From sequence record NC_049823.1: a stretch of 50,971 bases of DNA; one strand, 5' to 3'. The position numbers were made by a program, and so were the translations under genes. This stretch comes from Escherichia phage herni. Below the pieces are notes generated by a model. That model was not told where the DNA came from. It made no database searches and worked only from the letters and a program-made list of their open reading frames with translations. The number at the start of each line of letters is the position of its first letter. The stretch's first letter is position 1. Below are positions 4,084-48,873 of the stretch, piece by piece.

Positions 4084-4557
4084 TTAGCAATTAGTGCTTT
4101 CAGGTTTATACAGGAATCCGCCAGGTTCATAATCTGACATTCTTACCACTCGCAACATTTCACGCTTATCACATCTCTTTGTGAGCGGTTTGCCATTGGA
4201 ATCAAATCGCAGGTCTGGACGACAGAATGATGCGCGATAGCCTTGACATCCATATTTTTTGTAATCGTTATGCACCTTTTGAGCGCCAGCGGCTGAAATC
4301 ATACCACGAACGCGCCACTGATTTACAGTTTGCTGGCTAACGTTAAGACGTTTTGCCATTGCTGACACGCTTCCGTAATACTCAATAAGGATGTCAAGTC
4401 GCGCTTTTAGTCCGGCGCGCACTTCATCTTTTAAAACATAGTATCCCGTAGGGCGCTTGCGCTTCTTCTTGTCCTTGCCTCTTCGAGTTCCGTTATTGCC
4501 ATTAATTGTTCGCTTGTCAATCTTTCCTGTTGATACTGCGATTCGTTGCTCTTTCAT
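4084..4557 (-). CDS. helix-turn-helix DNA-binding protein
   Basis: ORF track; predicted HTH segment AKRLNVSQQTVNQWRVRGMIS; very basic N-terminus; GGAGA Shine-Dalgarno. Confidence 0.55.
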   Translation of the reverse strand: MKEQRIAVSTGKIDKRTINGNNGTRRGKDKKKRKRPTGYYVLKDEVRAGLKARLDILIEYYGSVSAMAKRLNVSQQTVNQWRVRGMISAAGAQKVHNDYKKYGCQGYRASFCRPDLRFDSNGKPLTKRCDKREMLRVVRMSDYEPGGFLYKPESTNC

Positions 4558-4570
4558 TATTCATTCTCCA

Positions 4571-4616
4571 ATAGCATTTTTTGTTAAACGATGATTTAAT
4601 GATTGTGTATTATACA
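4571..4616 (+). promoter_or_regulatory. conserved intergenic motif copy (ATAGCATTTTTTGTTAAA) plus ATTATA hexamer 22 nt downstream
   Basis: Matches the repeated motif; co-oriented with the helicase gene. Confidence 0.4.
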
Positions 4617-4646
4617 CACCAAATGGCATTACTCAAAGGTTTTAGA

Positions 4647-8694: not shown

Positions 8695-9810
8695 ATGAAG
8701 CAAATCAAAATCACAGATGAACAATTTATCAATGAGCGCAAGCAGGGAAAGACATATAAGCAGATAGCTAATGAGTATGGTATGAACGTTCGCAGCATTG
8801 AGCGACGCGCAGCGCGACTTGCAAAGCAAGGTAAAGTTACAACCATCGGATCACCTGGCTTTGGCGTTACTGGAGAATCAAAGCTAATTGATAAAGATGG
8901 CAATGTGGTTATGACATGGATTAAGACAAGCAAGGACCGCGAGCAGTTAGAAGCATTAATGCAGGCCGCTATGGATGCATTTAGCGAAGAAGTTCCGCGA
9001 CTTGATCCGCAACCAGAATCACAAAAGGATTATAGCGAGACGTTATCACTGTATCCGATCTTTGACATGCACTTGGGCGCAATGGCGCATAAGCATGAAT
9101 GCGGAGAGAATTGGGATACAGCAACAGCAGAGCGCGTAATGAATAATTTCATTGATTATTCTATCCAGTGCGCGCCGGATAGCGAAAAAGCTGTTTTGCT
9201 GATTGGTGGCGATATGCTTCACAGTGACGGACTTGAAGCGGTTACACCTGCAAGCGGTCACGTATTGGATCAAGATAGTCGATACGCAAAACTTGTTTAT
9301 GTTGCCATCCGGTCAGTGCGTCGAGCAATCACAAAGCTGTTATCAAAACATAAAAACGTAGAGATTCAGATAATTGAAGGCAACCACGACCAAAGCGGCA
9401 TGATCTGGTTGCGCGCAGCAATGGCGGCAGCATATGAGAATGAGCCGCGAGTGCATGTTGATGTGTCTCCGCGAGTGGTTCATCACACACAATATGGCAA
9501 AACATTCCTGGCATACCATCATGGGCACACTATCCGCAAGCCTGAAACATTGCTCATGATGTGTGCGGCAGACTGGCGCGAAGACTTCGGAAATTCAAAA
9601 ATGATGTATGCTCACGTAGGGCACTGGCATCATCAGACAGTAACTGAAACAAGCCTGGGCATTGTTGAAGTGCATAGCACTATGGCGGCAAAAGATGCAT
9701 ATGCGGCGCGCGGTGGATGGCGTTCTCGACGCCGTGCGGCTGTTATTGTTTACGATGAAGAATACGGAGAGGTAGGGCGATTTATGCATTATCCAGAAAT
9801 GGCTTATTGA
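8695..9810 (+). CDS. HTH domain fused to calcineurin-like metallophosphoesterase
   Basis: N-terminal HTH (KTYKQIANEYGMNVRSIERRAARL); phosphoesterase motifs FDMHLG, GGDMLHSDG, EGNHDQ, GHWHHQ; AAGGAGA Shine-Dalgarno. Confidence 0.7.
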   Translation: MKQIKITDEQFINERKQGKTYKQIANEYGMNVRSIERRAARLAKQGKVTTIGSPGFGVTGESKLIDKDGNVVMTWIKTSKDREQLEALMQAAMDAFSEEVPRLDPQPESQKDYSETLSLYPIFDMHLGAMAHKHECGENWDTATAERVMNNFIDYSIQCAPDSEKAVLLIGGDMLHSDGLEAVTPASGHVLDQDSRYAKLVYVAIRSVRRAITKLLSKHKNVEIQIIEGNHDQSGMIWLRAAMAAAYENEPRVHVDVSPRVVHHTQYGKTFLAYHHGHTIRKPETLLMMCAADWREDFGNSKMMYAHVGHWHHQTVTETSLGIVEVHSTMAAKDAYAARGGWRSRRRAAVIVYDEEYGEVGRFMHYPEMAY

Positions 9811-9853
9811 ACTTTTAATCATTAAAATATAAATATAAATCATAAATTTAATT

Positions 9854-9884
9854 GGGCGTGGCATTTTGCTTCGCCCTTTTTTTA
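9854..9884 (+). terminator. rho-independent terminator
   Basis: Hairpin GGGCG-n13-CGCCC followed by TTTTTTTATT. Confidence 0.6.
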
Positions 9885-9956
9885 TTCCTTTTTGTGCGTT
9901 CAATGGTTAGGATACAATCAATTAATTGTTGACTTTTATCTACAGGAGATCTAATC

Positions 9957-11375: not shown

Positions 11376-11564
11376 GATACGCTTTACAGTAACCAACAAA
11401 ACGCCGTCCTCATCACACAAATTATGCTCTGATATGTTAAACGCTCGCATGTCAGAATGAATTAGCGTTAACATTGCGTGCATGAAGTCTTCATGTGAGA
11501 TTGAACTTACGGCGCAGAACTTCAATATTTTGTCTATTAGCATTTGACGTAAACAGTTCTTCAT
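11370..11564 (-). CDS. hypothetical protein; start uncertain
   Basis: ORF track; overlaps the upstream gene by about 70 nt unless it starts at an internal Met (MHAMLTL, 11474). Confidence 0.3.
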   Translation of the reverse strand: MKNCLRQMLIDKILKFCAVSSISHEDFMHAMLTLIHSDMRAFNISEHNLCDEDGVLLVTVKRIE

Positions 11565-11883
11565 CGCTCATTTCTCCGATCCGTAAAACATCCCTAACCC
11601 ATTCGTTTTGCATACCTTCCAGGCTGTAAAGTTCAAACGAGAAAGGGCGATTTGCGGATCCTTTCTTACACCAGAACTTTCCACCAACTCCATCAAGATA
11701 ACCAGCTGTCATCATTCTTGCGCAAAACTCTTTTGAAACGGCAGTAGCAAACATTCTCGGCGTAAATCCTGCGGCCCTTGCGAGCCGCTCACATTCTCTA
11801 TGCTGAAAGATAAATTTTGCTATATGTTGACGCGTAAACCATTCGAATGACTCACACCAGCGATACAGATCCAGAAGAAACAT
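11491..11883 (-). CDS. hypothetical protein (130 aa)
   Basis: ORF track; start overlaps the stop of the upstream ATPase gene (TAATTATG). Confidence 0.45.
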   Translation of the reverse strand: MFLLDLYRWCESFEWFTRQHIAKFIFQHRECERLARAAGFTPRMFATAVSKEFCARMMTAGYLDGVGGKFWCKKGSANRPFSFELYSLEGMQNEWVRDVLRIGEMSDEELFTSNANRQNIEVLRRKFNLT

Positions 11884-17569: not shown

Positions 17570-17631
17570 TGCTATCTCCTGATGGGTATCTCGTTTCGAT
17601 GTGTCTAATGTACCCGATCAGGGCAATTCAG

Positions 17632-17652
17632 TTTTAACAAAAAGTGCTATTT
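17632..17652 (-). promoter_or_regulatory. conserved intergenic motif (minus orientation) heading the leftward block
   Basis: TTTTAACAAAAAGTGCTATTT about 60 nt upstream of the gene starting at 17569. Confidence 0.45.
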
Positions 17653-17791
17653 GCTTACTGGTTATTATTCCACCTATTCCATTAATCAGGAATAACAGGA
17701 ATAAATCATTCGCGATCACCTGGATTGTGAGACTTTGAGTTTGATCAATTTTAATCAAGTGATTAACTTTTTGTGTGGAGGGGATAGAGAA

Positions 17792-17869
17792 ATGTGGCCC
17801 TCTTGCGTCCTTTCCTGCAATCCTGGCGCGCACAACTGTTATTTCTGTTCCTCGTGTTATCTCAAATAA
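17792..17869 (+). CDS. possible 25-aa Cys-rich micro-ORF
   Basis: MWPSCVLSCNPGAHNCYFCSSCYLK with GGAGG Shine-Dalgarno 10 nt upstream; function unknown. Confidence 0.2.
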   Translation: MWPSCVLSCNPGAHNCYFCSSCYLK

Positions 17870-17891
17870 GCCTCCGCACTTTGAGATAACA
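17855..17891. repeat. perfect 12-bp inverted repeat TGTTATCTCAAA / TTTGAGATAACA with 13-nt loop
   Basis: Read directly from sequence; overlaps the stop codon of the micro-ORF. Confidence 0.6.
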
Positions 17892-17934
17892 GGATTGGCG
17901 TTCACCAACAAAAAGAACAAAATAAAATTTATAT

Positions 17935-18115
17935 ATATACCCATAAAATCAATAAGTTAGTTATATATGTATTTATATTTGTTATTTACTGTTGTGCTTG
18001 TTCTGTGGGTATATGGTGGTGTGGTATTGTTTGTGGTGATATATATGTGTGATTGTATATTTTTTAATCAATTGTGATGTGTGGTGATTTTTGTATGTAT
18101 ATATATGGGTATGAA
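17935..18115. repeat. AT-rich then TG-rich low-complexity element (copy A), homologous to 47450-47650
   Basis: AAATCAATAAGTTAG..TATATAT.TATTTATATTTGTT core followed by (TG)n-like tracts. Confidence 0.5.
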
Positions 18116-18239
18116 GTAATCCTCCGTCAACCAAGTCAACAAGGTCATTTTTAACATAAAAACCAATGACTTAACTGAAGCATTTTGTTATCTTTAAACG
18201 CGCCACGTGCCAAAAATTGTTGTTAAAACACAAAATATA

Positions 18240-18268
18240 TTGACATGCAGGAAAGGCAAGGCAATAAT
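18240..18268 (+). promoter_or_regulatory. sigma70-like promoter (TTGACA, 17 nt, AATAAT)
   Basis: Near-consensus -35 and spacer length about 37 nt upstream of the gene at 18305. Confidence 0.5.
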
Positions 18269-18304
18269 TCATCCAGTTTAAACGCAACAAAAGGAGTAGA
18301 TGCT

Positions 18305-18790
18305 ATGAGCGAAGAAAATATTAGCACCATGTCGCGTAGTGAGTTTTGCGATATGCTTCGCGACTTGGGCGCGGCAATTGGTAGTGGTGAGCGTAATAAT
18401 GTATTCATGCCAGCACTTTTTTTGTGCGCTAATGTGGAGAACGGCGAAGCAATTACGGCATCGTACATGCGCCAAGTTGTCAACCGTGTGCCAGAAGTAA
18501 AGCAAAAAGGCGTGATCAGCATTAAGCGAAAGGTGACTGATGAGGGTGATGGCTTTGTGTTTACGCTCACCGAAGCCAAAAGCAAGCCTCGCGTTCTGAC
18601 TGGTGAAGAAATCGACGAGATCGCAGAAAAGCGCGCAGAGAAGGCGGTAAGCAAAATTCTTAATCACCTGGTAAACGTAATGCCAAATATCACAGACATG
18701 GAAGGCGACAAACTTGCTGGAGCGTGTGAGGCTATCGGGCGCTACCAGGATATGATTCGTAAACTCGCTGGAGGAAAAGAGGATGAATAA
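18305..18790 (+). CDS. hypothetical protein (161 aa), first gene of the rightward small-gene block
   Basis: Start at MSEENIS with AAGGAG Shine-Dalgarno; the track start 18245 lies in the promoter. Confidence 0.55.
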   Translation: MSEENISTMSRSEFCDMLRDLGAAIGSGERNNVFMPALFLCANVENGEAITASYMRQVVNRVPEVKQKGVISIKRKVTDEGDGFVFTLTEAKSKPRVLTGEEIDEIAEKRAEKAVSKILNHLVNVMPNITDMEGDKLAGACEAIGRYQDMIRKLAGGKEDE

Positions 18791-19043
18791 GGCATTAATT
18801 GGAGTTTTGATTGCAATTGCTACCCTGACCGGATGCGAAAAGGCATCTGAATCAACAGTTGTCGTAGGAGTGGAGTCAGATTTTAAAGTCGATCGCCTGT
18901 TTACTGTTGATGGATGCACTGCGTACCGATTCTATGACAACGGTCGAGCAATCTATTACACCAATTGTAAGGGAGCAACGGATAGCACATACCGCAGCGG
19001 CAAAAACGTAATGCACCAACAAGTCACAACAGATATGAAATAG
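18783..19043 (+). CDS. lipoprotein (86 aa)
   Basis: Signal peptide plus lipobox LTGC; stop embedded in the next motif copy. Confidence 0.6.
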   Translation: MNKALIGVLIAIATLTGCEKASESTVVVGVESDFKVDRLFTVDGCTAYRFYDNGRAIYYTNCKGATDSTYRSGKNVMHQQVTTDMK

Positions 19044-32939: not shown

Positions 32940-32957
32940 TTTAACAAAAAATGCTAT
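32940..32957 (-). promoter_or_regulatory. conserved intergenic motif in inverted orientation relative to the downstream capsid gene
   Basis: TTTAACAAAAAATGCTAT on the plus strand. Confidence 0.35.
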
Positions 32958-33003
32958 CATTGGTCCGTTACATACTAACGACCTTTATATATGGAGGAAG
33001 AAA

Positions 33004-36698: not shown

Positions 36699-36717
36699 TT
36701 TTAACAAAAAGTGCTAT
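36699..36717 (-). promoter_or_regulatory. conserved intergenic motif in inverted orientation, directly upstream of the tail chaperone gene
   Basis: TTTTAACAAAAAGTGCTAT on the plus strand, ending 13 nt before the ATG. Confidence 0.35.
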
Positions 36718-36730
36718 CAAGGAGAAAGAA

Positions 36731-47082: not shown

Positions 47083-47310
47083 TTACATACTGCAATCAGC
47101 GTTTTTAAAGTTATCAATACTTACCCACTGAAAATTAAACGGATAGCCAGCCTTAACAAGAGTGCGGTCGCCAACTCGTTTTACTCCAAAAATAGCAACT
47201 GAATACTGCATACCGCTATTTTCATAAATAGCCGTGCATTCACGCTTAGGCATATTTGCGCAACCAGTCAGGGTTGCGGCTGCAATCAAAACGGCGATTA
47301 ATTTTTTCAT
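47083..47310 (-). CDS. small outer-membrane lipoprotein, possibly Cor-like superinfection exclusion protein
   Basis: 75 aa; signal peptide with lipobox LTGC; size and position next to tail genes as for Cor-type proteins; functional assignment is inference. Confidence 0.45.
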   Translation of the reverse strand: MKKLIAVLIAAATLTGCANMPKRECTAIYENSGMQYSVAIFGVKRVGDRTLVKAGYPFNFQWVSIDNFKNADCSM

Positions 47311-47366
47311 CTTGGTATCTCCTTAGTTGTTGTTGGTTGCAACTATACACGATCTTGCGGCGGTCG

Positions 47367-47385
47367 TTTAGCAAAAAGTGCTATT
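47367..47385 (-). promoter_or_regulatory. conserved intergenic motif (minus orientation) upstream of the lipoprotein gene
   Basis: TTTAGCAAAAAGTGCTATT. Confidence 0.4.
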
Positions 47386-47449
47386 CTGTTCTTTTTGTTT
47401 TCCTGCGTTCTCAAATCTGCGGAGGCGTAAATTTAGCGCAAAAAGTGAG

Positions 47450-47650
47450 CAACAATAGAGCGTAATAAATACAGATAAATATATATACATATATATAAAT
47501 CAATAAGTTAGCAGTATATATATTTATATTTGTTTTTTCTTGTTATCTATGTTTTGTGTGATTTTGTGTGTCTGGTAATTTTTATGTGGTTGTGTATGTG
47601 TCAGTGCTTGTGTGTGTCTATATATCCATATCCGGCGCAAATGGAGGAAC
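47450..47650. repeat. AT-rich then TG-rich low-complexity element (copy B), homologous to 17935-18115
   Basis: AAATCAATAAGTTAGCAGTATATATATTTATATTTGTT followed by TG-rich tracts. Confidence 0.5.
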
Positions 47651-47763
47651 AAGAGAACAAAAAGACAACAAAGATATTTATCAATCACTTACATGTAAAT
47701 TTTGTTATCCGATTCGTCTGGAACGTTGTTAGAACAGAAAAAACAAAATAACTGTTGACTAAA

Positions 47764-47791
47764 CGCATTAAATAGCTAAAATGCAGGCATA
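47764..47791 (+). promoter_or_regulatory. sigma70-like promoter (TTGACT, 16 nt, TAAAAT)
   Basis: Near-consensus hexamers about 20 nt upstream of the gene at 47812. Confidence 0.5.
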
Positions 47792-47811
47792 CCAACAAAC
47801 GAGGGCAAATC

Positions 47812-48873
47812 ATGAATAAGTTTATGGCGTACACCAGCGAAGAAATGAGCAACGAGCTTTATCACGATCCAGAAGCGTGGACGGCTGATTATGTTAGCGG
47901 TTCAAGCCTGGCAGAGATTTACAGCACATGCCCGGCAGCGTGGAAGTTCAAGCCGCGTGACGACAAGAGCAAGGCGCTAGTTTTTGGTACGCAGTCGCAT
48001 ACCAACTTTGAAAGCAAGGAGCTTTTCGAAAAAACTTATCGCCGTGCGCCAGCGCCAGAAGACTTTAAGGATCTGATAACCAGCCAAACGGCGCTTGCTG
48101 CAAAGCTGAAATCATTTGGCCTGAAAGGTACAACCGGAAAGACTTACCCCGAACTTATAAAAATGATGGTTGACTGCGGAGAAGACCTTAACGTCATGTG
48201 GTTAATCGACATGATCGCAGAAAGTCAGGCCAGGGCCGATGGGGTTCAGTTAATCGAGGCTAAAGATTACGATTCGTGCGTGGCAATGCGCCAGGTTCTG
48301 GAATCAATACCGGAACATAACGCATGTATGAATAGCAAGACGGCACAGCGTGAATTATCGTTGTTCGGTGAAATTAACGGCGTAAAAGTCAAAGTGCGAT
48401 GCGATCACGTTGACGTAACAAAGAACGTCACCGCAACGCTGATTGATGGTTACGATGAAAAAGGCCAGCCGATTTGCCGCGATATTATTTATCCAGAGGC
48501 CATTGTGATCACAGACTACAAAACTACAATGAGCGCGAATCCGGCTGAGTTTATGCGCCTGGCTTACAATCACGGCTATTATTTGAAAATGGCGTTGCAA
48601 TGTGATTTATTCAGAAAAGCGTATCCAGAAGAAAAGCGACCTATAGTTGTGCGACTGTTAGCGCAAGAGAAGAAAGAGCCTTATTTGCCGTTGGCTTTCC
48701 GAATGAATAGCGAGCAGTTGAAGATCGGGCGCATTCAGTACATGAGCGTGATTAACCAGTTTGCCATGTGCCAGCAACATGACGTTTGGCCTTCGTATTC
48801 AAACGGTGAGCCTGAGGTTTGCCTTGATACTCCTGATTGGGTGCGCCGCCAGTTTAAGCAATATCTTATTTAA
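47812..48873 (+). CDS. PD-(D/E)XK recombination exonuclease
   Basis: RCDHVD and IVITDYKTT nuclease motifs; sits upstream of the Erf and SSB genes. Confidence 0.6.
   Translation: MNKFMAYTSEEMSNELYHDPEAWTADYVSGSSLAEIYSTCPAAWKFKPRDDKSKALVFGTQSHTNFESKELFEKTYRRAPAPEDFKDLITSQTALAAKLKSFGLKGTTGKTYPELIKMMVDCGEDLNVMWLIDMIAESQARADGVQLIEAKDYDSCVAMRQVLESIPEHNACMNSKTAQRELSLFGEINGVKVKVRCDHVDVTKNVTATLIDGYDEKGQPICRDIIYPEAIVITDYKTTMSANPAEFMRLAYNHGYYLKMALQCDLFRKAYPEEKRPIVVRLLAQEKKEPYLPLAFRMNSEQLKIGRIQYMSVINQFAMCQQHDVWPSYSNGEPEVCLDTPDWVRRQFKQYLI

What the first reader, a model, noticed from the sequence alone, without database searches (positions are those of the whole stretch)
17935..18115. AT-rich core plus TG-rich tract at the first divergent junction (copy A)
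The roughly 730-bp non-coding junction between the leftward and rightward early blocks contains a core AAATCAATAAGTTAGTTATATATGTATTTATATTTGTT followed by about 120 bp dominated by TG/GT and TGTG tracts, and is then followed by a near-consensus sigma70 promoter at 18240-18268. The same core and TG-rich tract recur at 47450-47650. Candidate roles include a replication origin, a curved-DNA promoter enhancer, or a host-factor binding platform.
Basis: seen in the sequence. Interest (0 to 1): 0.6.

Follow-up and report, generated by a model that had tools for sequence, protein, structure and literature searches.

The report
Duplicated origin-like AT/TG element in T1-family phage
A T1-family coliphage carries two copies of a roughly 400-bp non-coding module (the most easily melted DNA in the genome, an IHF-type site, short repeats on both sides and a cytosine-free TG stretch) that looks most like the still-unidentified replication origin(s) of this phage family, although a role as a control region for the early promoters is not excluded.

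Summary
Copy A (17920-18115) and copy B (47463-47625) share a truly homologous ~60-nt AT core; the TG tracts resemble each other only in composition. The window is a Hanrivervirus (Drexlerviridae). Both copies sit inside larger modules (A 17837-18268, B 47385-47782). Each module has short TGTTy/GAACA repeats about 9-10 nt apart, direct on the left and just after the core, inverted on the right up to the -35 of a near-consensus sigma70 promoter. The core holds a perfect IHF consensus. The two cores are the two least stable 100-bp duplex windows in this genome, in TLS and in T1. The C/A-rich strands are the least foldable single strands in the genome. The layout is kept family-wide, but the repeat unit changes by clade (GTGAACA/GGAACA in Tempevirinae, GTTACA in the T1 clade). 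GTGAACA is also the annotated ori/crr repeat of phage P4, whose primase domain is homologous to this phage's primase. No ORF, Rfam family, DnaA box, strong curvature or long Z-DNA run explains the element. Best reading (0.42): a duplicated iteron/DUE/IHF replication-origin-type element. Main rival (0.30): an upstream control region of the immediate-early promoters. Function is inferred, not shown.

The parts
17837..17863 (+). Copy A, left repeat module M1: three TGTTy units 9 nt apart (TGTTATTTCTGTTCCTCGTGTTATC)
   Evidence: A regex for three YGTTH units hits only the two junctions plus one coding site. The units align with 21 other modules from relatives.
17856..17890 (.). Copy A, 11-bp inverted repeat GTTATCTCAAA / TTTGAGATAAC around AAGCCTCCGCAC. 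The loop is the reverse complement of the GCGGAGGC box of copy B.
   Evidence: Read directly from the sequence. Function unknown.
17900..17925 (-). Copy A, inverted repeat units next to the core: GTTCACC (reverse complement GGTGAAC, 7 of 8 of the P4 type-1 repeat) and ACAAAAAGAACAAAAT (M2)
17920..17985 (.). Copy A, AT core with (TA)n runs; the second least stable 100-bp duplex window of the genome
   Evidence: Nearest-neighbour free energy z = 4.4. (TA)n runs at 17930 and 17962.
17947..17959 (+). Copy A, perfect IHF consensus AATCAATAAGTTA (WATCAANNNNTTR)
   Evidence: 11 hits in the window against 3.1 +/- 1.6 in shuffles, and 4 of the 11 lie in the two junctions.
17978..18007 (+). Copy A, post-core repeat module M3 (TTTGTTATTTACTGTTGTGCTTGTTC), a direct copy of M1
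17983..18115 (+). Copy A, TG-rich, C-poor tract (3% C) ending in a (TA)n run at 18098-18106. Its C/A-rich complement is the least foldable single strand in the genome.
   Evidence: The tract is not positionally conserved. In phage morffagbaw it is replaced by a shorter, less TG-rich spacer.
18118..18146 (-). Copy A, right GC box and inverted repeat units (AATCCTCCGTCAACCAAGTCAACAAGG), equivalent to M4 of copy B
18161..18173 (+). Copy A, IHF-like site AACCAATGACTTA (one mismatch), at the position of the perfect site in copy B
18183..18239 (.). Copy A, TTTTGTTATC unit and the A-rich block AAAAATTGTTGTTAAAACACAAAATATA that abuts the -35
18240..18268 (+). Immediate-early sigma70 promoter P_A (TTGACA-17-AATAAT). 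It drives a DUF7174 gene that starts at 18305.
   Evidence: Equivalent to P01 of TLS.
47385..47415 (+). Copy B, left repeat module M1 (CTGTTCTTTTTGTTTTCCTGCGTTCTC)
47421..47456 (.). Copy B, GGAGGCGTAAAT box and inverted units CAAAAAGTGAGCAACAAT (M2)
47463..47535 (.). Copy B, AT core; the least stable 100-bp duplex window of the genome. It holds the longest alternating purine-pyrimidine run (19 nt).
47498..47510 (+). Copy B, perfect IHF consensus AATCAATAAGTTA
47527..47556 (+). Copy B, post-core repeat module M3 (TATTTGTTTTTTCTTGTTATCTATGTTTTG)
47534..47625 (+). Copy B, TG-rich, C-poor tract ending in TATATAT
   Evidence: (TGT:ACA = 14:0).
47632..47673 (-). Copy B, right box CCGGCGCAAAT and inverted repeat module M4 (GGAGGAACAAGAGAACAAAAAGACAACAAAG)
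47679..47691 (+). Copy B, second perfect IHF consensus TATCAATCACTTA, about 75 bp upstream of the -35
   Evidence: the position is fixed in relatives. In the T1 clade the consensus bases are invariant while the N positions vary.
47700..47752 (.). Copy B, TTTTGTTATC unit and inverted module M5 (GGAACGTTGTTAGAACAGAAAAAACAAAATAAC) that abuts the -35
47755..47782 (+). Immediate-early sigma70 promoter P_B (TTGACT-16-TAAAAT), which drives recE-erf-ssb
   Evidence: Equivalent to P51 of TLS.

Best explanation
The two elements are paralogous copies of a replication-origin-type nucleoprotein assembly site of T1-family phages. Steps 1-6 are inferred; none is shown here.

Proposed mechanism:
1. A phage-encoded DNA-binding protein, whose specificity differs between clades, binds the short repeats. 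These are TGTTy/GAACA here, GTGAACA in Tlsvirus and GTTACA in the T1 clade. They lie in opposite orientation on the two sides of the element.
2. Host IHF binds the perfect consensus in the AT core and bends it.
3. Negative supercoiling, helped by the outward-firing strong early promoter, melts the (TA)n-rich core. This core is the least stable duplex in the genome.
4. The bubble spreads into the adjacent TG tract.
5. The two strands of that tract (T/G only, and C/A only) cannot fold on themselves. They would offer a structure-free platform for loading the phage DUF3987 helicase, the P4-alpha-type primase and SSB.
6. The promoter-proximal half (right box, inverted repeats, second IHF site, repeats abutting the -35) probably couples occupancy by the same protein to early transcription.

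What is shown: the anatomy, its statistical distinctness, its conservation and the clade-specific repeat change.

What is inferred: protein binding, unwinding and initiation.
For: (a) Duplex stability. The two AT cores are the two least stable 100-bp windows in the window (z 5.3 and 4.4), in TLS (5.0, 4.6) and in T1 (5.9, 5.3).

(b) Repeat modules.
- Modules of three TGTTy units 9-10 nt apart lie left of the core and just after it; inverted copies lie on the right.
- In 26 Tempevirinae copies the conserved columns are these modules, the core, the GGCGyAAAT boxes and the promoter. The interior of the TG tract is not conserved.

(c) Polarity map. The same map (TGT block, ACA block, AT core, TGT block, ACA block, TGT, ACA, -35) holds in Tempevirinae and the T1 clade. 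The unit itself changes from GTGAACA/GGAACA to GTTACA/ATTACA.

(d) GTGAACA enrichment. It occurs 1.42 times per kb in 45 junction-B loci against 0.06 per kb in flanking genes. It sits at fixed positions, -168 (+) and -397 (-). In TLS 4 of 8 genome-wide copies lie in the two junctions.

(e) IHF consensus. It is found in the core of both copies. Over 45 loci there are 38 hits against 5.2 expected, at fixed positions.

(f) P4 parallel.
- The annotated ori and crr of P4 carry GGTGAACA 'type 1' repeats in both orientations around an AT-rich stretch.
- The window primase is homologous to the primase part of P4 alpha (E 9e-13).

(g) Two-site precedent. SPP1 G38P binds two separate sites, oriL and oriR; oriL consists of repeats next to an AT-rich DUE.

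(h) Single-strand foldability. The C/A-rich strands of both copies are the least foldable 130-nt single strands in the genome (MFE -0.4 to -1.0 against -26 +/- 6.4 kcal/mol).

(i) Third early promoter. It lies upstream of the HTH regulator and primase genes and has neither repeats nor an AT core. The modules are therefore not a generic attribute of early promoters.

(j) Candidate DNA-binding proteins exist. One is a winged-helix protein at 11494-11883 next to the helicase (pLDDT 88). The other is an HTH protein at 4087-4557 next to the primase.

(k) Literature. The origin of T1-like phages is reported as not found.
Against: - No experiment or data set links these sites to initiation.
- GC skew follows gene orientation and says nothing either way.
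- No repeat-binding protein was identified. The HTH recognition helix and the winged-helix protein do not covary cleanly with repeat class.
- No homologue of the P4 alpha origin-binding domain was found.
- In this window the exact GTGAACA heptamer is absent from the junctions; only degenerate forms occur. A 7-mer shared with P4 could be coincidence.
- The promoter-proximal half keeps a fixed geometry relative to the -35 (121-123 bp in both A and B) and its repeats abut the -35. That is what a transcriptional control region would show.
Confidence: 0.42

Rival explanations
1. The element is an upstream control region of the two immediate-early sigma70 promoters. An early phage protein binds the repeats at about -40, -100, -250 and -370. 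IHF bends the DNA so that distal and proximal sites cooperate (looping). This boosts or later shuts off P_A and P_B. The AT core and TG tract serve only as a flexible hinge or spacer.
For: - The repeats abut the -35 (M5).
- The right half has constant geometry in A and B (121-123 bp from the right box to the -35). Its polarity map is kept between clades.
- A second IHF consensus lies about 75 bp upstream of the -35. In the T1 clade its consensus positions are invariant while its N positions vary.
- Each copy is always followed by a conserved near-consensus promoter.
Against: - Near-consensus promoters need no activator.
- The third early promoter (P57) lacks the modules.
- The distance from the core to the -35 differs by 36 bp between A and B (293 against 257). 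The distal half is therefore not phase-locked to the promoter.
- This reading gives no reason for the genome-wide extreme in duplex instability or for the structure-free strands.
Confidence: 0.3
2. The element is a binding and topology site for host nucleoid proteins (IHF, H-NS, Fis, gyrase). It organises or insulates the injected genome and has no dedicated phage partner.
For: - Perfect IHF consensus sites.
- AT-rich DNA rich in TpA steps and flexible TG/CA steps.
Against: The repeat unit changes between clades that infect the same hosts while the layout is kept. That points to a phage-encoded, co-evolving binder rather than to host proteins alone.
Confidence: 0.08
3. The element acts as RNA. 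The C/A-rich, G-poor, unstructured leftward transcript of the tract would be a Rho-loading (rut) site or an unstructured leader.
For: The minus-strand sequence has about 3% G and about 25% C, and essentially no predicted structure.
Against: - No conserved leftward promoter lies to the right of the tract.
- The leftward genes have their own 21-nt-box promoters downstream of the tract.
- There is no Rfam match and no structure beyond shuffles.
- The tract is not conserved in the T1 clade.
Confidence: 0.04
4. The element belongs to the packaging initiation (pac) region.
For: - The T1 and TLS records both start about 200 bp to the left of copy A.
- In TLS the pac cut was mapped there by restriction analysis.
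Against: - The assigned pac lies in a GATT-rich block (about 17710-17792 here) that is absent from junction B.
- A second equivalent pac at B would give a second pac fragment, and the TLS paper reports only one.
Confidence: 0.04
5. The element is neutral low-complexity intergenic DNA left by an old duplication.
For: The interior of the TG tract is not positionally conserved and can be replaced.
Against: - Two copies at the same two junctions are kept across genera whose RecE proteins are only about 63% identical.
- The modules, polarity and IHF consensus positions are conserved.
Confidence: 0.04

Closest known systems
Phage P4 ori and crr (bound by the alpha protein)
   Same: - Two separate cis sites.
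- Arrays of the octamer GGTGAACA/TGTTCACC, 8-11 bp apart, in both orientations around AT-rich DNA.
- The same GTGAACA heptamer occupies the equivalent repeats of Tlsvirus and related genera.
- The phage primase is a homologue of the Zn-ribbon/Toprim part of P4 alpha.
   Different: - The T1-family primase lacks alpha's SF3 helicase and its C-terminal Pox_D5 winged-helix origin-binding domain, and no such domain was found elsewhere.
- In this window the repeats are degenerate (GGAACA, GAGAACA).
- The T1 clade uses GTTACA.
- P4 has no C-free TG tract.
- From memory, not checked here: P4 crr is required in cis and alpha loops ori to crr.
Bacillus phage SPP1 oriL / oriR
   Same: - A pac-type siphovirus with two distant sites bound by one replisome organiser.
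- In oriL, repeats lie next to an AT-rich DUE.
   Different: - SPP1 oriL lies inside the initiator gene.
- The SPP1 initiator (G38P) has no detected homologue here.
- The repeats are 'AB boxes' rather than penta- to heptamers.
- No IHF site is described for SPP1.
Iteron plasmid origins with IHF in the AT-rich region (pSC101, R6K gamma) and E. coli oriC
   Same: From established knowledge of these origins: an AT-rich unwinding region that holds an IHF site, directly repeated initiator sites, and inverted copies overlapping a promoter.
   Different: - No DnaA boxes lie in or near the elements.
- The adjacent promoters drive recE-erf-ssb and a DUF7174 gene, not a known initiator gene.
- The repeats are much shorter than 18-22-bp plasmid iterons.
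Phage T4 oriF/oriG and the T7 primary origin (promoter plus AT-rich DUE)
   Same: A strong promoter is associated with an AT-rich unwinding element, and one phage genome has several origins (from memory).
   Different: In those origins the promoter fires into the DUE and the transcript primes synthesis. Here the conserved promoters fire away from the core, and no conserved inward promoter was found.
Phage Mu early operator region (repressor sites, IHF site, divergent promoters)
   Same: Multiple short binding sites, an IHF site and divergent promoters in one control region (from memory). This is the model for the rival reading.
   Different: - T1-family phages are strictly lytic.
- Mu has no extreme AT core or strand-asymmetric tract.
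- The module is duplicated here.

Membership tests
Iteron-type theta replication origin | AT-rich duplex unwinding element of exceptionally low stability | tested here: met
   The two cores are the two least stable 100-bp windows in the window, in TLS and in T1.
Iteron-type theta replication origin | Arrays of short repeats next to the DUE, spaced about one helical turn apart | tested here: met
   Three-unit modules with 9-10-nt spacing in both orientations. They are conserved columns and change sequence by clade.
Iteron-type theta replication origin | The repeats are bound by an initiator encoded by the replicon | not testable with these tools
   Only candidates were found: a winged-helix protein at 11494-11883 and an HTH protein at 4087-4557. 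Covariation with repeat class is inconclusive.
Iteron-type theta replication origin | Replication starts there, or the site confers replication in cis | not testable with these tools
   No replication data are available. GC skew is uninformative.
DnaA-dependent origin | Cluster of DnaA boxes (TTWTNCACA) | tested here: not met
   Four hits in the window (6.8 expected), none in either junction.
P4-type ori/crr | Clusters of the type-1 repeat GGTGAACA | tested here: inconclusive
   Exact GTGAACA is enriched 24-fold at fixed positions in relatives, and 4 of 8 copies in TLS lie in the junctions. In this window there are 0 exact copies in the junctions, only GGTGAAC (17900-17906, reverse complement) and GGAACA/GAGAACA.
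P4-type ori/crr | Alpha-type protein with a C-terminal Pox_D5 winged-helix origin-binding domain | tested here: not met
   The primase has only the Zn ribbon and Toprim region. No Pox_D5 hit appeared in the 19 window proteins scanned or by tblastn/hhalign.
P4-type ori/crr | Two cis sites carrying the same repeats | tested here: met
   Copies A and B lie 29,551 bp apart in the same orientation. Whether both are required is untested.
IHF binding site | Match to WATCAANNNNTTR, preferably with an AT-rich flank | tested here: met
   Perfect matches at 17947, 47498 and 47679. They are enriched and positionally conserved. Binding itself was not tested.
pac site (headful packaging start) | Coincides with the mapped first cut and is unique in the genome | tested here: not met
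   The mapped or assigned pac of TLS and T1 lies about 200 bp to the left, in a GATT-rich block absent from copy B. The element itself occurs twice.
Intrinsically curved upstream DNA | High predicted curvature (phased A-tracts) | tested here: not met
   In the wedge model the core and TG tract fall at the 31st-98th percentile (straight) and the flanks at the 4th-10th percentile. The parameters were recalled from memory, so the result is approximate.
Z-DNA-forming (TG)n tract | Long uninterrupted alternating purine-pyrimidine run rich in TG/CA or CG | tested here: not met
   The longest runs are 19 and 16 nt and mostly (TA)n; the (TG)n runs are at most about 9-11 nt.
Structured non-coding RNA | Rfam match, or structure more stable than shuffles | tested here: not met
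   No Rfam hit at gathering score. Folding z-scores run from -0.7 to +0.8 on both strands.
Small hydrophobic protein gene | ORF conserved in relatives with a start signal | tested here: not met
   The 36-aa ORF starting at about 17967 has no Shine-Dalgarno sequence. It is lost in BEK7, morffagbaw, TLS and Stevie.
Rho utilisation (rut) site | C-rich, G-poor, unstructured RNA of 80 nt or more, downstream of a promoter | tested here: inconclusive
   The composition and lack of structure are met on the minus strand. No conserved leftward promoter lies upstream of it.

The most novel reading that the evidence does not exclude
T1-family phages initiate replication with a 'split P4-alpha' system. A stand-alone alpha-type primase, a DUF3987 helicase and a separate small winged-helix or HTH origin binder act on two cis sites (A and B, analogous to ori and crr). 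The sites are built from GTGAACA-family repeats and IHF. A cytosine-free TG tract has evolved in Tempevirinae as a structure-free single-strand landing pad for helicase and primase.
Probability: 0.22. Interest if true: 0.72.

Novelty: new variant of a known kind. Interest (0 to 1): 0.56.

Why it matters
T1 is one of the seven classical T phages, and Drexlerviridae are common therapeutic candidates and laboratory contaminants. Their origin of replication has nevertheless never been located. The 2024 TLS re-annotation states that no iterons or origin could be found.

The analysis gives two precise, conserved, testable candidate sites of about 400 bp each. It also gives a defined repeat code that differs between clades, predicted IHF dependence and candidate binding proteins.

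If confirmed, it would explain how a polymerase-less phage recruits the host replisome. It would link T1-family replication to the P4 alpha lineage. It would also provide cis elements for phage-dependent plasmid amplification and for genome engineering.

If the rival reading is right instead, the same map defines the control region of the immediate-early promoters, which is equally undescribed.

Tried and rejected
- **Rfam scan of the whole window:** no family.
- **RNA folding of the tract, both strands:** no better than shuffles.
- **Small ORFs in the tract:** not conserved.
- **ORF 17618-17944, annotated in some relatives:** interrupted or frame-shifted in L049, morffagbaw and BEK7, so probably spurious.
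- **Intrinsic curvature:** not high in the element.
- **Z-DNA:** alternating runs too short and mostly TA.
- **DnaA boxes:** none in the junctions.
- **Chi sites:** one per strand, elsewhere in the genome.
- **GATC clustering:** none in the element.
- **GC-skew profile:** follows gene orientation only.
- **Similar DNA in 5,426 E. coli genomes and in plasmids:** no match, so no satellite or plasmid carries the element.
- **Third AT-rich regions (9754-9940, 1297-1478):** no repeat modules.
- **Identifying the repeat binder:**
  - The recognition helix of the HTH regulator varies, but not in step with repeat class.
  - The DUF3987 helicase and the primase Zn ribbon are conserved across clades.
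  - The winged-helix protein gives only generic fold matches.
  - No P4 alpha origin-binding domain was found.
- **nhmmer with a 22-sequence module profile:** recovered the junction sites only at weak E-values. The motif is too short and too compositionally biased for that test to carry weight.
- **TGT spacing:** autocorrelation peaks at 9-10 nt but is mixed with a 2-nt signal from TGTG runs, so there is no clean helical periodicity across the whole tract.
- **Two literature searches:** wasted.
Full report
**Identity of the window.** The window is essentially a complete genome of a T1-like siphovirus.
- The junction sequences match Escherichia phages PGN590, JakobBernoulli, egaa and G29-2 at 92-99.8% identity.
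- These phages belong to Drexlerviridae, Tempevirinae, Hanrivervirus.
- Junction A (17570-18304) separates a leftward block of small early genes from a rightward block that leads into the terminase and structural genes.
- Junction B (47311-47811) lies between a small leftward cor-like lipoprotein gene, at the end of the tail genes, and the rightward recE-erf-ssb genes.

**Check of the observation.**
- The two copies have the same orientation and lie 29,551 bp apart.
- The tracts are extreme in composition. In copy A, 17983-18115 is 3% C against a genome mean of 20%. The two elements hold the most GT-rich 100-nt windows of the whole genome.
- The A/B similarity is far above chance: local alignment score 97, against 26.8 +/- 4.2 for dinucleotide shuffles and 39.7 +/- 7.4 for shuffles that keep regional composition.
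- That signal comes from the ~60-nt AT core. The TG tracts on their own align no better than shuffles (z 0.95).
- So the core is homologous sequence, while the TG tract is a shared compositional property.

**The element is larger and modular.** I fetched 45 relatives of junction B through the recE gene. I also fetched junction A from TLS, T1, Stevie, PHB07, BEK7 and morffagbaw. A common layout emerged. From left to right it is:
1. a module of three TGTTy units 9-10 nt apart (M1);
2. a GC-rich box (GGCGTAAAT or CCGCA);
3. inverted units (ACAAAAAGAACAAAAT, M2);
4. the AT core with (TA)n runs;
5. a second direct three-unit module immediately after the core (M3), which forms the start of the 'TG tract';
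6. the variable T/G-rich spacer, ending in TATATAT;
7. a second GC box;
8. inverted units (GGAGGAACAAGAGAACAAAAAGACAAC, M4);
9. an AATCAnnnACTTA motif;
10. a TTTTGTTATC unit;
11. inverted units abutting the -35 (GAACAGAAAAAACAA, M5);
12. a near-consensus sigma70 promoter.

Supporting measurements:
- A regular expression for three YGTTH units finds four junction sites and one coding site in the whole window.
- In an alignment of 26 distinct Tempevirinae B copies, the conserved columns are these modules, the core, the boxes and the promoter. The interior of the TG tract is poorly conserved.
- The 110 nt after the core carry 6-18 TGT against 0-2 ACA in nearly all of the 46 loci; three loci show only 3-5 TGT against 2 ACA.
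- The alternation of TGT-rich and ACA-rich blocks relative to the -35 is the same in Tempevirinae and in the T1 clade.

**The repeat unit changes by clade.** At equivalent positions the unit differs:

| Group | Sequence at the M4 position |
|---|---|
| Tempevirinae (TLS type) | GTGAACAatGGAACA |
| This genus | GGAACAagaGAACA |
| T1 clade | GGTTACAagtATTACG |
| Smaller lineages | GATTACA, GTAAACA or TATACA |

- Exact GTGAACA occurs 1.42 times per kb in the junction-B loci against 0.06 per kb in the adjacent genes. It sits at fixed positions, -168 in one orientation and -397 in the other.
- A conserved layout with a lineage-specific unit is what co-evolution with a phage-encoded DNA-binding protein would produce. 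This is an inference.

**Physical properties.**
- With nearest-neighbour free energies, the two cores are the two least stable 100-bp duplex windows of the genome (z 5.3 and 4.4). The same holds at the equivalent junctions of TLS and T1. The two-copy AT core is therefore a family-wide feature.
- TATATA/ATATAT hexamers are enriched 23-42-fold in the junctions of all three phages.
- The C/A-rich strands of both tracts are the least foldable 130-nt single strands in the genome (MFE -0.4 to -1.0 kcal/mol against -26 +/- 6.4; RNA parameters used as a proxy). A strand made of T and G only, or of C and A only, cannot pair with itself.
- The element is not intrinsically curved in an approximate wedge model.
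- Its alternating purine-pyrimidine runs are the longest in the genome, but they are short and mostly (TA)n.

**Host-factor site.** The conserved heart of the core, AATCAATAAGTTA, is a perfect match to the IHF consensus WATCAANNNNTTR in both copies.
- The window has 11 matches against 3.1 +/- 1.6 in shuffles, and four of them lie in the two junctions.
- Across 45 junction-B loci there are 38 matches against 5.2 expected. They fall at two fixed places: in the core, and about 75 bp upstream of the -35.
- In the T1 clade the proximal site keeps every consensus base while the four N positions vary freely. This pattern indicates selection on the consensus bases.

**What it is not.**
- There is no Rfam family, and no RNA structure beyond shuffles on either strand.
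- The open frames in the T/G-rich strand are expected from the composition and are lost in slightly more distant relatives.
- The annotated ORF 17618-17944 is interrupted or shifted in close relatives.
- There are no DnaA boxes.
- No similar DNA exists in E. coli genomes or in plasmids.
- The pac site is a separate matter. The T1 and TLS records both start in junction A, and the TLS cut was mapped there by restriction analysis. The assigned position, however, falls in a GATT-rich block about 200 bp left of the core (about 17710-17792 here), and junction B lacks that block.

**Literature.**
- The 2024 TLS paper describes the 21-nt direct repeats and three sigma70 promoters: P01 at junction A, P51 at junction B and P57 upstream of the regulator-primase genes.
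- The same paper states that no iterons were found anywhere and that the origin remains unidentified.
- The SU57 paper also failed to find an origin.
- I found no description of the duplicated element.

**The P4 lead.**
- In the P4 record the annotated ori and crr carry 'ori type 1 repeats', GGTGAACA/TGTTCACC. They lie 8-11 bp apart in both orientations around AT-rich DNA. 13 of the 15 genomic GTGAACA copies lie in these two regions.
- The same heptamer fills the repeat positions in TLS-like phages.
- The window's primase has a Zn_Ribbon_Prim domain plus a Toprim region and aligns with the N-terminal primase part of P4 alpha (E 9e-13).
- It lacks alpha's SF3 helicase and its Pox_D5 origin-binding domain.
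- I looked for a separate origin-binding protein.
  - The 130-aa protein encoded next to the DUF3987 helicase folds with confidence (pLDDT 88) into a winged helix. Its structural matches are generic.
  - Nothing links it specifically to P4 alpha.
  - The HTH protein encoded with the primase is a second candidate. Neither protein covaries cleanly with repeat class.
- The P4 resemblance is therefore a functional analogy with one homologous component. Membership in the P4 ori/crr family is not established.

**Weighing the two main readings.**

For an origin-type element:
- the genome-wide extreme in duplex instability at both copies in three genera;
- repeats of opposite orientation on both sides of the core;
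- IHF inside the AT-rich region;
- strands that stay single once opened;
- two cis sites, as in P4 and SPP1;
- the absence of the modules from the third early promoter.

For an early-promoter control region:
- the repeats reach the -35;
- the right half has the same length in A and B (121-123 bp);
- an IHF site sits at a fixed upstream position.

The distance from the core to the -35 differs by 36 bp between A and B. This suggests two sub-modules: a distal one (core plus TG tract) and a promoter-coupled proximal one. The two readings may both be partly true, as in plasmid origins where the initiator also regulates an adjacent promoter.

I give the origin-type reading 0.42 and the promoter-control reading 0.30. 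The remainder goes to nucleoid-protein, RNA, pac and neutral explanations.

**Verdict.** The finding is real and conserved across the family. As far as I could establish, it has not been described. It is best filed as a new variant of a known kind: an iteron, DUE and IHF origin-type element, duplicated, with an unusual cytosine-free flank. Its function is inferred only. It turns an old open question, where T1-type phages start replication, into a directly testable one.

Noticed in passing
window, 20 sites, e.g. 4571(+), 7089(+), 8109(+), 17650(-), 19040(+), 47384(-): There are 20 copies of the 21-nt box AATAGCACTTTTTGTTAAAAC, oriented with the downstream genes. In 18 of them a -10-like hexamer (CATAAT, TATAAT, TACATT) starts exactly 38-39 nt after the A of ATAGCA, which puts the box centre near -41. 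A conserved CATCGAAACGA-like leader motif follows. The box is known from the TLS paper, where its function is called unknown. The geometry looks like a class II activator-dependent promoter.
   Followed up: partly
window 4560-4640: The compact divergent region between the HTH regulator/primase operon and the helicase gene holds one 21-nt box (4571-4591). The box would lie near -41 of the helicase promoter and also within the first ~25 nt transcribed from the leftward sigma70 promoter (TTGAGT-17-TATAAT on the minus strand). This suggests the regulator activates one promoter and represses its own.
   Followed up: partly
window 32940-32959 and 36700-36719 (minus-strand orientation): Two 21-nt boxes point leftward inside the rightward late gene block, and they lack the -10-like hexamer at the usual distance. 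Their role is unexplained.
   Followed up: no
window 17664-17708: A palindromic cluster TTATTCCA..TATTCCA / GGAATAA..GGAATAA is conserved in T1 (L003 about 48770-48810). In TLS and Stevie it is replaced by two copies of AGACCGATTGGTCT. It could be another protein-binding site of junction A only.
   Followed up: no
window 17710-17792: A GATT/TGAT-rich block is almost invariant among Hanriverviruses. It corresponds to position 1 of the T1 and TLS records, which is the assigned pac region. It is absent from junction B.
   Followed up: partly
window 17618-17944 (-): A 108-aa ORF annotated as a hypothetical protein in JakobBernoulli and others. It contains the 21-nt box and the motifs above, has no Shine-Dalgarno sequence, and is broken by stops or frame shifts in L049, morffagbaw and BEK7. 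It is probably not a gene.
   Followed up: yes
window 18783-19043 (+) and 47083-47310 (-): Two small lipoprotein genes, one next to each junction, share 48 nt of signal-peptide DNA at 79% identity (inverted repeat I3). The second is the cor-like superinfection-exclusion gene. The duplication that made copies A and B may have included a lipoprotein gene.
   Followed up: no
window 11494-11883 (-): A conserved 130-aa protein just downstream of the DUF3987 helicase is predicted with high confidence (pLDDT 88) to have an N-terminal winged-helix fold. Homologues are found only in Drexlerviridae and are often labelled 'YdbL'.
   Followed up: yes
window 18305-18790 and equivalents in L002, L003, L051, L053, L054: The first gene behind promoter P_A is a DUF7174 protein in this phage, TLS, Stevie, PHB07 and BEK7, and weakly in T1 (where it also hits AcrF2 weakly). 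It is therefore a conserved first immediate-early gene of unknown function. Phage morffagbaw has a different gene there.
   Followed up: partly
L055 (morffagbaw) 790-880: Copy A of morffagbaw is identical to the window up to about 18020. From there the rest of the TG tract is replaced by a shorter, less TG-rich spacer, which marks a recombination breakpoint inside the tract.
   Followed up: partly
search results: About 20 GenBank records named 'Campylobacter phage' (MG0656xx, host C. jejuni, unannotated) are 90-93% identical to these E. coli Drexlerviridae junctions. They are probably coliphage contaminants or mislabelled.
   Followed up: no
window 9810-9940: The third most AT-rich, least stable region lies between the exonuclease gene and the holin gene. 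It contains a terminator-like hairpin and an IHF consensus (9916) but no TGTTy modules.
   Followed up: partly
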